Of a stretch of DNA of 64,000 nucleotides, positions 3,001 through 6,000 are shown in pieces; position 1 is the stretch's first letter, and each line of letters opens with the position of its first letter. Source of the DNA: Escherichia coli. Its GTDB lineage: Bacteria; Pseudomonadota; Gammaproteobacteria; Enterobacterales; Enterobacteriaceae. Made by a program: the position numbers. The stretch is taken from NCBI RefSeq assembly GCF_003991155.1, contig NZ_CP031293.1, one strand, 5' to 3'.

Positions 3001-6000
3001 CTGCGATGGCGCACCACATTGATGGCACTTTGCGTATCGTCCAGCAATCCGGCCTGGGACGGCGTACCTTTTGATTTACCAAACCCGCGATAATCAAACA
3101 TAAAAACGTTGAAATTACGCTCGGGTAACCAACTGACCAGCGGCCAGTGGGCGGACATATTTCCGGCATTGCCGTGAGCATGAATAATGGTAGCAATGGC
3201 GTTATCAGCAGGGCCCGTCGAAGAAGGGATAAACCAGCCTTGCAGATGAGTACCGTCCTTAGCCGTAAATTCGACGGATTCCGCCGACCAGGGTTCGGGA
3301 CCGTAGATTTTGTCGTCAGGGTAATAGAAAAAATTGATGGCGATGCGCGGTATTAAATAAATGCAGAAGGCAACAACAAAGAGAATAAACAGAATTTTGA
3401 GAACGCGTTTGTTCACTGGCAGCGCCATAACCTTTCCTTGCGACTTCTTTATCATCCATTAATCGGGGAAAGATGGTGGGAGAGTGACGAAAGAAAGTAA
3501 AGCGGTGAGGAAGTATTTCGGAATAGCGCCTGAAAGGCGAGGGCGGGTGAGTGACATCACCCGCCTGAGTCATTAACGCTTCAGAGCGTCGCTTAACTCG
3601 TCACGCATGTTCGCCAGCATGGCTTTCACAACGCGCGGGTTACCAGCAACGATGTTACCGGTCAGCATGTAGTTATGACCACCGGTGAAGTCGCTGACGA
3701 TGCCGCCCGCTTCACGAACCAGCAGCTCGCCTGCGGCGAAATCCCACGGACGCAGACCGATTTCAAAGAAACCGTCAACACGACCCGCAGCGACGTAAGC
3801 CAGATCCAGCGCCGCAGAACCGGTACGACGGAAGTCTGCACATTCGTTGAACAGTTTGCCGACGATGTTTATGTAGGTGGTGGCGTACTGTTTTGCTTTG
3901 AACGGGAAGCCGGTCGCCAGAATAGTACCGTCGAGATCGCGAGCGGTGCTGCCGCGCAGACGGTAGCCGTTCAGCTGTGCGCCCTGACCGCGAGTGGCGG
4001 TGAACAGTTCGTTACGCATAGGATCGTATACCACAGCAACTTCGGTGCGGCCTTTGATACGAACGGCGATAGATACCGCGAAGTGCGGCAGACGTTTGAT
4101 AAAGTTGGTAGTGCCATCCAGTGGATCGATAACCCATTGAACATCCTGATCGGTACCTTCAAGTTCACCGCTTTCTTCGGTGATGATGGTGTGCTGTGGG
4201 TAAGATTTACGAATCGTGTCGATAATCACCGCTTCGGCAGCTTTATCTACGTTGGTCACGAAATCGTTACTGCCTTTCTGGCTCGCTTCTACAGCGTCCG
4301 GGGTTTCATAGTTTTTGGCAATTAAATTACCCGCCTTGCGCGCTGCGCGCACGGCGATGTTCAGCATCGGATGCATCGGTCTCTCTCACTGGATGTTAAA
4401 GAACGGGAAAACGGCGCAGAGTATAGCAGCGAGATCGGCATCTGTCTTCGTTTTATGATAAGATGCGTGAATAATCTTTAGATGAAGAAAGACAATGCTG
4501 CAAAATATTCGAATTGTGCTGGTGGAGACGTCACACACCGGCAATATGGGTTCTGTTGCCCGTGCCATGAAAACAATGGGATTAACCAATCTGTGGCTGG
4601 TTAATCCACTGGTGAAACCCGACTCCCAGGCGATTGCCCTGGCAGCAGGGGCCAGCGATGTGATTGGTAATGCGCACATCGTCGATACGCTCGACGAAGC
4701 GTTGGCTGGTTGTAGCCTGGTGGTGGGCACCAGCGCACGTTCCCGCACGCTGCCGTGGCCGATGCTCGACCCGCGCGAATGCGGTCTGAAAAGCGTCGCT
4801 GAAGCGGCAAATACCCCGGTGGCGCTGGTGTTTGGTCGCGAGCGCGTCGGCTTGACCAATGAAGAGCTGCAGAAATGCCATTATCATGTCGCGATTGCGG
4901 CTAACCCGGAATACAGTTCGCTGAACCTGGCGATGGCGGTTCAGGTTATTGCCTATGAAGTGCGCATGGCCTGGCTGGCAACTCAGGAAAATGGCGAGCA
5001 GGTCGAGCATGAAGAGACGCCGTATCCGCTGGTCGATGATCTGGAGCGTTTTTATGGTCATCTGGAGCAAACGCTGCTGGCAACCGGTTTTATCCGTGAA
5101 AACCATCCGGGGCAGGTGATGAATAAATTGCGCCGTCTGTTTACCCGTGCACGCCCGGAAAGCCAGGAATTGAATATCCTGCGCGGGATTCTGGCTTCTA
5201 TTGAGCAGCAGAATAAAGGTAACAAGGCCGAATAACAGTGGTTGCCTGATGCGATGCTTAACGCGTCTTATCAGGCCTGTAAGTGCACGGAATCTCAGGT
5301 TGGATAAGGTGTTCACACCGCATCCGACAACAGGTACAAACGCCACGATAAAAAAATGGCACTGAAGGTTAAATACCCGACTAAATCAGTCAAGTAAATA
5401 GTTGACCAATTTACTCGGGAATGTCAGACTTGACCCTGCTATGCAATACCCCCACTTTTACAATAAAAAACCCCGGGCAGGGGCGAGTTTGAGGTGAAGT
5501 AAGACATGAGACTGACATCTAAAGGGCGCTATGCCGTGACCGCAATGCTTGACGTTGCGCTCAACTCTGAAGCGGGCCCGGTACCGTTGGCTGATATTTC
5601 CGAACGTCAGGGAATTTCCCTTTCTTATCTGGAACAACTGTTTTCCCGTCTGCGTAAAAATGGTCTGGTTTCCAGCGTACGTGGACCAGGCGGTGGTTAT
5701 CTGTTAGGCAAAGATGCCAGCAGCATCGCCGTTGGCGAAGTGATTAGCGCCGTTGACGAATCTGTAGATGCCACCCGTTGTCAGGGTAAAGGCGGCTGCC
5801 AGGGCGGCGATAAATGCCTGACCCACGCGCTGTGGCGTGATTTGAGCGACCGTCTTACCGGTTTTCTCAATAACATTACTTTAGGCGAACTGGTTAATAA
5901 CCAGGAAGTGCTGGATGTGTCTGGTCGTCAGCATACTCACGACGCGCCACGCACCCGCACACAAGACGCGATCGACGTTAAGTTACGCGCTTAATAAAAA

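What the first reader, a model, noticed from the sequence alone, without database searches (positions are those of the whole stretch)
5373..5422. Tandem IscR type-1 operators in the iscR promoter
Two contiguous 25-bp sites match the type-1 consensus at 24/25 and 22/25 positions, giving the classic autoregulatory architecture of the iscRSUA promoter. The iscR-iscS spacer (5995-6105) is where RyhB-dependent differential regulation of the operon is known to act.
Basis: partly seen in the sequence, partly recalled or inferred. Interest (0 to 1): 0.25.

Follow-up and report, generated by a model that had tools for sequence, protein, structure and literature searches.

The report
Known IscR operators in iscR promoter
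These are the two well-studied DNA sites where the E. coli iron-sulfur sensor protein IscR binds to switch off its own operon, so the finding is correct but ordinary and already known.

Summary
Window 5373-5397 and 5398-5422 match the published IscR type-1 consensus ATASYYGACTRWWWYAGTCRRSTAT at 24/25 and 22/25. They are the only matches with 3 or fewer mismatches in 64 kb, where none is expected by chance. They are exactly contiguous.

From 5301 to the iscR start, the window is base-for-base identical to E. coli K-12 MG1655. A published construct implies a 68-nt 5'UTR, which puts the start site at 5438. Site A is then -65..-41 and site B -40..-16. Site B covers the -35 hexamer TTGACC and abuts an extended -10.

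A motif-blind alignment of 21 Enterobacterales iscR upstream regions shows A+B as the most conserved block. The exact 25-bp phasing recurs across Gammaproteobacteria. The downstream gene is a full-scoring IscR with all cluster ligands.

The side claim also holds. Rfam RF01517 ("iscR stability element") matches 5995-6104 at 136.5 bits, and RyhB can pair across the iscS start codon.

Mechanism, from published work on the identical K-12 sequence: [2Fe-2S]-IscR occupies A and B, blocks RNA polymerase, and closes a negative feedback loop on Fe-S cluster supply.

Verdict: a textbook feature, already known, of low interest.

The parts
5373..5397 (.). IscR type-1 operator, site A (ATACCCGACTAAATCAGTCAAGTAA); -65..-41 relative to the inferred start site
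   Evidence: 24/25 to the consensus. Identical to K-12. Mean identity to the window base is 0.74 across 21 Enterobacterales, against 0.40 for the upstream flank. 8/12 dyad pairs.
5398..5422 (.). IscR type-1 operator, site B (ATAGTTGACCAATTTACTCGGGAAT); -40..-16; overlaps the -35 hexamer and spacer
   Evidence: 22/25 to the consensus. Lies within the published iscRB oligo. Mean identity 0.87 across Enterobacterales. A B-like site of at least 19/25 sits 40-140 nt from the ATG in 105 of 117 gammaproteobacterial iscR upstream regions.
5402..5407 (+). -35 hexamer TTGACC of the iscR promoter, inside site B
   Evidence: Read from the sequence. 17-bp spacing to CAGACT. Nearly invariant in the alignment. 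The strict sigma-70 scan did not call this promoter, because the -10 matches only 3/6.
5422..5430 (+). Extended -10 (TGtCAGACT): TG at 5422-5423, hexamer CAGACT at 5425-5430
   Evidence: Read from the sequence. GGAATGTCAGACT is almost invariant in 21 Enterobacterales. Assigned by inference from spacing to the -35 hexamer and to the start site.
5438..5438 (+). Inferred iscR transcription start (+1)
   Evidence: [quoted passage not shown] No start-site mapping was done here.
5438..5505 (+). iscR 5'UTR, with the CCCCGGGCAGGGG hairpin at about 5470-5484; published target of the sRNAs OxyS and FnrS
   Evidence: literature. Hairpin seen. Both arms of the stem differ in Superficieibacter (GCCC...GGGC) in the alignment.
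5506..5994 (+). iscR, the Fe-S cluster assembly regulator (162 aa), with Glu43, Cys92, Cys98, Cys104 and His107 present
   Evidence: ORF. NCBIfam NF008110 344.7 bits (cutoff 275) and TIGR02010 220.2 bits. Residues counted in the translation; their roles are given.
5995..6105 (+). iscR-iscS intergenic region, the 'iscR stability element'
   Evidence: Rfam RF01517 iscRS at 5995-6104, 136.5 bits against a gathering score of 40, E 2e-35, full-length model. Predicted fold -39.1 kcal/mol, z -2.46. Literature.
6078..6109 (+). Predicted RyhB pairing region, covering the iscS ribosome-binding region and AUG (6106-6108)
   Evidence: RNAduplex of K-12 RyhB nt 39-70 against 6076-6135: -24.7 kcal/mol, in the top 2.1% of 4264 control 60-nt windows. 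This is a prediction only; the published pairing could not be read.
6106..7320 (+). iscS, cysteine desulfurase, the first structural gene under the promoter
   Evidence: ORF. The ATG at 6106 gives the 1215-nt length annotated for K-12 b2530.

Best explanation
Window 5373-5422 holds the two contiguous type-1 operators, sites A and B, of the E. coli iscRSUA-hscBA-fdx-iscX promoter. IscR is encoded immediately downstream. It binds these sites tightly only when it carries its [2Fe-2S] cluster. Site B covers the -35 hexamer and the spacer up to the extended -10, and site A covers -65..-41. Occupancy therefore keeps RNA polymerase off the promoter. The Isc machinery itself loads IscR with its cluster, so this forms a negative feedback loop. 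When Fe-S supply is sufficient, holo-IscR is plentiful and the operon is repressed. When demand rises (oxygen, oxidants, iron limitation), there is less holo-IscR and the operon is derepressed. Further layers act downstream: OxyS and FnrS on the 5'UTR, and RyhB with a protective RNA structure in the iscR-iscS spacer. Shown here: the motif matches, their uniqueness in the window, the sequence identity to K-12, the geometry relative to the promoter, the conservation, and an intact cognate regulator. Taken from the literature: binding, cluster dependence and repression. Inferred: polymerase exclusion as the physical mechanism.
For: The two sites are unique in the window and none is expected by chance. 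The promoter region is 100% identical to K-12 MG1655. The consensus is confirmed in the literature. The published iscRB oligo maps to 5396-5425. 'Pisc promoter contains two IscR sites' and the 68-nt 5'UTR place A and B at -65..-16. [quoted passage not shown] A motif-blind MAFFT alignment of 21 Enterobacterales shows the A+B block as the most conserved part of the upstream region: 0.74 and 0.87 against 0.40 for the flank and 0.52 for the 5'UTR. Across Gammaproteobacteria, 105 of 117 iscR upstream regions have a B-like site. The only upstream offset enriched for a second site is exactly 25 bp: mean 14.8/25 against 7-11/25 at the other offsets, with 49 loci at 17/25 or better against 0-2. P. aeruginosa has the same footprinted A/B layout. 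At least 5368 of 5423 E. coli complete genomes match the 50 bp with no mismatch inside the aligned stretch. IscR scores above the equivalog cutoffs.
Against: Nothing contradicts it. There are three limits. First, the primary footprinting papers (Giel 2006, Giel 2013) were not available, so the -65..-41 and -40..-16 positions come from an indirect published statement plus arithmetic, and agree with my memory of those papers. Second, the consensus was partly derived from these sites (from memory). Third, the simple sigma-70 scan did not call a promoter here, because the -10 hexamer CAGACT is weak. The published oligo differs from the genome at one base, 5409.
Confidence: 0.96

Rival explanations
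1. The conserved block is conserved only as core promoter DNA (UP-element-like AT-rich region, -35, spacer), and the resemblance to an IscR motif is incidental.
For: Site B contains the -35 hexamer TTGACC, and the adjacent extended -10 is equally conserved. That part of the conservation could come from RNA polymerase contacts.
Against: Both half-sites of each 25-mer are conserved, including positions with no promoter role, such as ACTCGGGAAT in the spacer and the whole of site A upstream of -41. The strict 25-bp phasing of a second dyad recurs across Gammaproteobacteria. [quoted passage not shown]
Confidence: 0.02
2. The matches are chance or circular: the consensus was built from these sequences, so a high score proves nothing.
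For: From memory, the type-1 consensus was derived from a handful of E. coli sites that include iscR A and B. The palindromic terminator at 58660-58684 reaches 21/25 by accident.
Against: Evidence that does not use the motif, namely the phylogenetic footprint and the near-invariance within the species, marks the same 50 bp. The motif also finds sites in distant genera that were not used to build it. In clean control segments the best score never exceeds 19/25.
Confidence: 0.01
3. The sites are mainly operators for a different Rrf2-family regulator (for example NsrR) or for apo-IscR acting as type-2 sites.
For: Rrf2 proteins recognise related AT-flanked dyads. IscR has two site classes, and apo-IscR binds type-2 sites.
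Against: Neither 25-mer is among the best matches to the type-2 motifs; the best type-2-like matches in 5300-5510 lie elsewhere and are weak. The literature states that the isc promoter carries type-1 motifs specific for [2Fe-2S]-IscR and that apo-IscR is inactive on isc. No NsrR motif was tested here.
Confidence: 0.01

Closest known systems
E. coli K-12 PiscR type-1 sites A and B (iscRA/iscRB; Giel et al. 2006, 2013; Schwartz et al. 2001)
   Same: The sequence is identical from 5301 to the iscR ATG. The site B sequence is the one used in published binding assays. The downstream operon and regulator are the same.
   Different: Nothing differs in the sites themselves. Upstream of about 5300, the trmJ-iscR spacer is shorter: 270 bp against 451 bp, with one repeat unit instead of three. 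The published oligo has T where both genomes have A at 5409.
P. aeruginosa PAO1 PiscR sites A (-67..-43) and B (-42..-18)
   Same: The same contiguous 25+25 bp layout over the -35/-10 region. Site B, ATAGTTGACCTAATTACTCGGATAA, is very close to the window's ATAGTTGACCAATTTACTCGGGAAT. Repression depends on holo-IscR.
   Different: In PAO1, site B is primary and helps load the weak site A. In E. coli, IscR is reported to bind either site independently. PAO1 lacks site C, the suf operon and a RyhB site between iscR and iscS.
Rfam RF01517, iscRS (iscR stability element)
   Same: A full-length match at 5995-6104, 136.5 bits against a gathering score of 40.
   Different: None detected. This is the side claim of the finding, not the operators themselves.
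IscR type-2 sites (hyaA, sufA promoters)
   Same: The same regulator, also placed over promoter elements.
   Different: A different, degenerate motif that binds both apo- and holo-IscR. The sites here do not fit it.

Membership tests
IscR type-1 operator | 25-bp match to ATASYYGACTRWWWYAGTCRRSTAT | tested here: met
   24/25 and 22/25, the only hits in 64 kb with none expected by chance. Consensus confirmed.
IscR type-1 operator | Imperfect inverted-repeat (dyad) organisation with AT-rich ends | tested here: met
   8/12 and 6/12 self-complementary pairs. Both sites score the same on both strands. ATA at the 5' ends; TAA and AAT at the 3' ends.
IscR type-1 operator | Located over the promoter of an Fe-S biogenesis gene, so that binding represses it | tested here: met
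   Sites at -65..-16 relative to +1 = 5438, derived from the 68-nt 5'UTR. The -35 hexamer TTGACC lies inside site B. The iscRSUA-hscBA-fdx genes follow downstream.
IscR type-1 operator | Sequence identity with the experimentally characterised K-12 sites | tested here: met
   100% identity to MG1655 across the promoter. The iscRB oligo maps to 5396-5425 with one base different. The original footprint figures could not be read.
IscR type-1 operator | Cognate IscR with cluster ligands Cys92/Cys98/Cys104/His107 and the specificity residue Glu43 | tested here: met
   NF008110 344.7 bits and TIGR02010 220.2 bits. Residues counted in the translation; roles.
IscR type-1 operator | Conservation in orthologous iscR promoters | tested here: met
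   Enterobacterales footprint; 117 Gammaproteobacteria, 25-bp phasing.
IscR type-1 operator | Binding requires [2Fe-2S]-IscR and represses transcription in vivo | not testable with these tools
   Literature only.
Rfam RF01517 iscRS | Covariance-model score above the curated gathering threshold | tested here: met
   136.5 bits against 40, model positions 1-110 of 110, at 5995-6104.
RyhB target site at iscS | Complementarity between the RyhB single-stranded core and the iscS translation initiation region | tested here: inconclusive
   -24.7 kcal/mol for RyhB nt 39-70 against 6078-6109, in the top 2.1% of control windows. This is suggestive but not unique. The published pairing was not readable.
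IscR type-2 site | Match to AxxxCCxxAxxxxxxxTAxGGxxxT or to the 26-bp type-2 consensus | tested here: not met
   The best matches in 5300-5510 are weak and lie outside 5373-5422. The 26-bp consensus used was recalled from memory.

The most novel reading that the evidence does not exclude
The strict head-to-tail 25-bp phasing of type-1 sites is an ancient, selected array rather than two independent operators. It is conserved across Gammaproteobacteria and extends to three sites in [Erwinia] mediterraneensis and Candidatus Pantoea persica. The window's 5348-5372 (ATA...GGTTAA, 13/25) would then be a decayed third unit. That would imply cooperative or polymer-like IscR loading even in E. coli, where binding is reported to be independent.
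Probability: 0.1. Interest if true: 0.25.

Novelty: already known. Interest (0 to 1): 0.06.

Why it matters
This is the control point of the housekeeping Fe-S cluster assembly operon. It sets how E. coli matches cluster synthesis to demand, and it feeds into the Isc/Suf switch that affects aminoglycoside and fluoroquinolone tolerance. For this window it serves only as an annotation. The locus is intact and identical to the K-12 reference, so nothing new is learned about the mechanism.

Tried and rejected
The primary papers could not be read: Giel 2006 and 2013, Rajagopalan 2013, Nesbit 2009, Schwartz 2001, Mettert and Kiley 2014 and 2024, and Desnoyers 2009. Site positions therefore had to be rebuilt from secondary statements.

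The generic sigma-70 scan found no promoter in 5200-6150. I do not take this as evidence against a promoter, because CAGACT matches only 3/6 and falls below the tool's cutoff, while the TG extension and the -35 hexamer are conserved.

Full-length RyhB duplex folding was uninformative: -55.5 kcal/mol, no better than a typical window. It was replaced by a scan restricted to the RyhB core.

The search for the minor site C using type-1 and type-2 motifs gave nothing convincing. The best candidate is 5339-5363, at 7/9 to the Nesbit motif. Site C is left unplaced.

The 21/25 match at 58660-58684 was checked and rejected as an intrinsic terminator.

The first control was contaminated by segments overlapping the iscR promoters themselves, so it was redone cleanly.

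Full report
**What is in the sequence**

The region reads suhB(-), trmJ(+), a 270-bp spacer, then iscR (5506-5994), iscS (6106-7320), iscU, iscA, hscB, hscA, fdx, iscX and pepB. An 870-bp query spanning the spacer and iscR matches 5425 of 5426 complete E. coli genomes, several at 100%. The window is therefore an E. coli chromosome.

The stretch 5373-5422 reads ATACCCGACTAAATCAGTCAAGTAA | ATAGTTGACCAATTTACTCGGGAAT.

**Check of the observation**

- With up to 3 mismatches it hits the window only at 5373-5397 (1 mismatch) and 5398-5422 (3 mismatches). None was found in 100 shuffles.
- A Poisson-binomial calculation from base composition expects 9e-6 and 4e-3 such sites in the window, and about 6e-13 contiguous pairs.
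- Both sites score the same on either strand, because the motif is a dyad. They have 8/12 and 6/12 self-complementary pairs.
- The next best match is 21/25 at 58660-58684. It is AAAGCCGACTTTAAGAGTCGGCTTTTTTTT, a stem-loop terminator directly after a gene whose product ends like Upp (my identification from the sequence).

The counts 24/25 and 22/25, the contiguity and the coordinates are all correct.

One caveat, from memory: the consensus was derived partly from these E. coli sites, so the score is not fully independent evidence.

**Independent evidence**

1. *Identity to K-12.* From 5301 through the iscR start, the window is identical to K-12 MG1655. Published results on PiscR therefore apply directly.
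2. *Species-level conservation.* The 50 bp are present in 5423 of 5426 E. coli genomes. 5368 of these show no mismatch in the aligned part. Some alignments are trimmed at the ends, so this is an upper bound on perfect identity.
3. *Retrieval of orthologous promoters.* I retrieved iscR loci without reference to the promoter, using a degenerate DNA pattern for the IscR N-terminus. This gave 120 gammaproteobacterial loci.
4. *Phylogenetic footprint.* A MAFFT alignment of the 180 nt upstream of the ATG from 21 Enterobacterales uses no motif information. It shows the A+B block, together with the adjacent GGAATGTCAGACT, as the only strongly conserved segment.

   | Segment | Mean identity to the window base |
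   |---|---|
   | Upstream flank | 0.40 |
   | Site A | 0.74 |
   | Site B | 0.87 |
   | -10 region | 0.72 |
   | 5'UTR | 0.52 |

5. *Wider Gammaproteobacteria.* 105 of 117 upstream regions carry a site of at least 19/25 located 40-140 nt from the ATG. Clean control segments never exceed 19/25.
6. *Phasing.* Among offsets 15-40 bp upstream of that site, only offset 25 is enriched for a second site. Its mean score is 14.8/25 against 7-11/25 at the other offsets, and 49 loci reach 17/25 or better against 0-2 elsewhere. The head-to-tail arrangement is itself conserved.

**Geometry relative to the promoter**

[quoted passage not shown] It also states that the Pisc promoter contains two IscR sites.

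- This implies a 68-nt 5'UTR, so +1 is at 5438.
- Site A is then -65..-41 and site B -40..-16. This agrees with my recollection of Giel et al. 2006 and 2013, which could not be opened.
- The -35 hexamer TTGACC (5402-5407) lies inside site B.
- A TG motif at 5422-5423 and the hexamer CAGACT at 5425-5430 form an extended -10 that begins at the last base of site B.
- The generic sigma-70 scan did not call this promoter, because the -10 is weak. Conservation and the published start site support the assignment.

**Direct link to binding data**

[quoted passage not shown] This equals window 5396-5425 except at 5409, where both the window and K-12 have A and the oligo has T. Both bases satisfy the W at that motif position.

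**Regulator**

The downstream ORF scores 344.7 bits against NCBIfam NF008110 (cutoff 275) and 220.2 bits against TIGR02010. It retains Glu43, Cys92, Cys98, Cys104 and His107 (translation; roles).

**Mechanism**

The following steps are taken from the literature on the identical K-12 sequence.

- [2Fe-2S]-IscR, most effectively in the reduced 1+ state, binds the type-1 sites and represses PiscR. Apo-IscR does not.
- IscR is matured mainly by the Isc machinery, so this gives negative feedback that tracks Fe-S demand.
- E. coli IscR is reported to bind either site independently. In P. aeruginosa, site B is primary.

One step is inferred: repression works by excluding RNA polymerase, because site B covers the -35 hexamer and spacer and site A covers the upstream contact region.

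**The side claim on the iscR-iscS spacer**

- Rfam RF01517 (iscRS, "iscR stability element") matches 5995-6104 full length at 136.5 bits against a gathering score of 40.
- The region folds at -39.1 kcal/mol, z -2.46.
- Reviews and the Massé laboratory state that RyhB targets this region. iscSUA is then shut off, while a strong structure preserves the iscR fragment.
- RyhB nt 39-70, taken from the K-12 record, can pair with 6078-6109 across the iscS AUG at -24.7 kcal/mol. This is in the top 2.1% of control windows. It is consistent with the published model but is not proof.

**Comparison and verdict**

Every testable defining feature of an IscR type-1 operator is met. Only the biochemical features (cluster-dependent binding, repression in vivo) could not be tested here. 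The sites are not type-2 sites. The minor site C reported for E. coli could not be located by motif.

The finding is correct and its interpretation is supported. It describes a well-characterised regulatory region in a sequence identical to the reference strain, so it is already known and of low interest.

Noticed in passing
window 5236-5340: The trmJ-iscR spacer is 270 bp here against 451 bp in K-12 MG1655. K-12 carries three copies of a roughly 90-bp palindromic repeat unit (it looks like a REP/BIME element, judged from the sequence), and the window carries one. The difference ends about 70 bp upstream of site A, and the promoter itself is unchanged.
   Followed up: partly
window 5409 (within 5396-5425): The published iscRB binding-assay oligo (PMC12594620) reads ...GACCATTTTAC..., whereas this window and K-12 both read ...GACCAATTTAC.... 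This is either a typo in the paper or a deliberate or legacy variant. Several Enterobacter-like species naturally have the T version.
   Followed up: partly
window 5466-5495: The iscR 5'UTR contains a GC hairpin, CCCCGGGCAGGGG, preceded by an A-run. On the minus strand it scores as a terminator-like site. It is conserved in the Escherichia, Citrobacter, Enterobacter and Klebsiella group, and both arms of the stem differ in Superficieibacter (GCCC...GGGC). It is absent from Yersinia, Photorhabdus and Erwinia, which have much shorter leaders. It lies in the published OxyS/FnrS-targeted leader.
   Followed up: partly
L119 and L077 (upstream of iscR): [Erwinia] mediterraneensis and Candidatus Pantoea persica have three head-to-tail type-1-like sites, scoring 20/19/22 and 19/20/21 of 25, instead of two. 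In the window, the equivalent third position 5348-5372 scores only 13/25 but keeps ATA...GGTTAA ends.
   Followed up: partly
window 58660-58684: This is the only other near match to the type-1 consensus (21/25). It is the perfect palindrome AAAGCCGACTTTAAGAGTCGGCTTT followed by a T-run, lying directly after a gene whose product ends like Upp (my identification from the sequence). It is an intrinsic terminator that mimics the GACT...AGTC core, which shows that consensus-only scans can pick up terminators.
   Followed up: yes
window 13378-13682 (-) and 26523-26614 (+): Rfam gathering-level hits to the sRNAs ryfA (319.4 bits) and sroE (110.9 bits). These are expected residents of this E. coli region.
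   Followed up: no
window 5339-5363: AACGCCACGATAAAAAAATGGCACT matches 7 of the 9 specified positions of the Nesbit IscR motif AxxxCCxxAxxxxxxxTAxGGxxxT, at about -99..-75. It is a possible candidate for the minor site C reported in E. coli, but the match is weak and the region is conserved only in E. albertii.
   Followed up: partly
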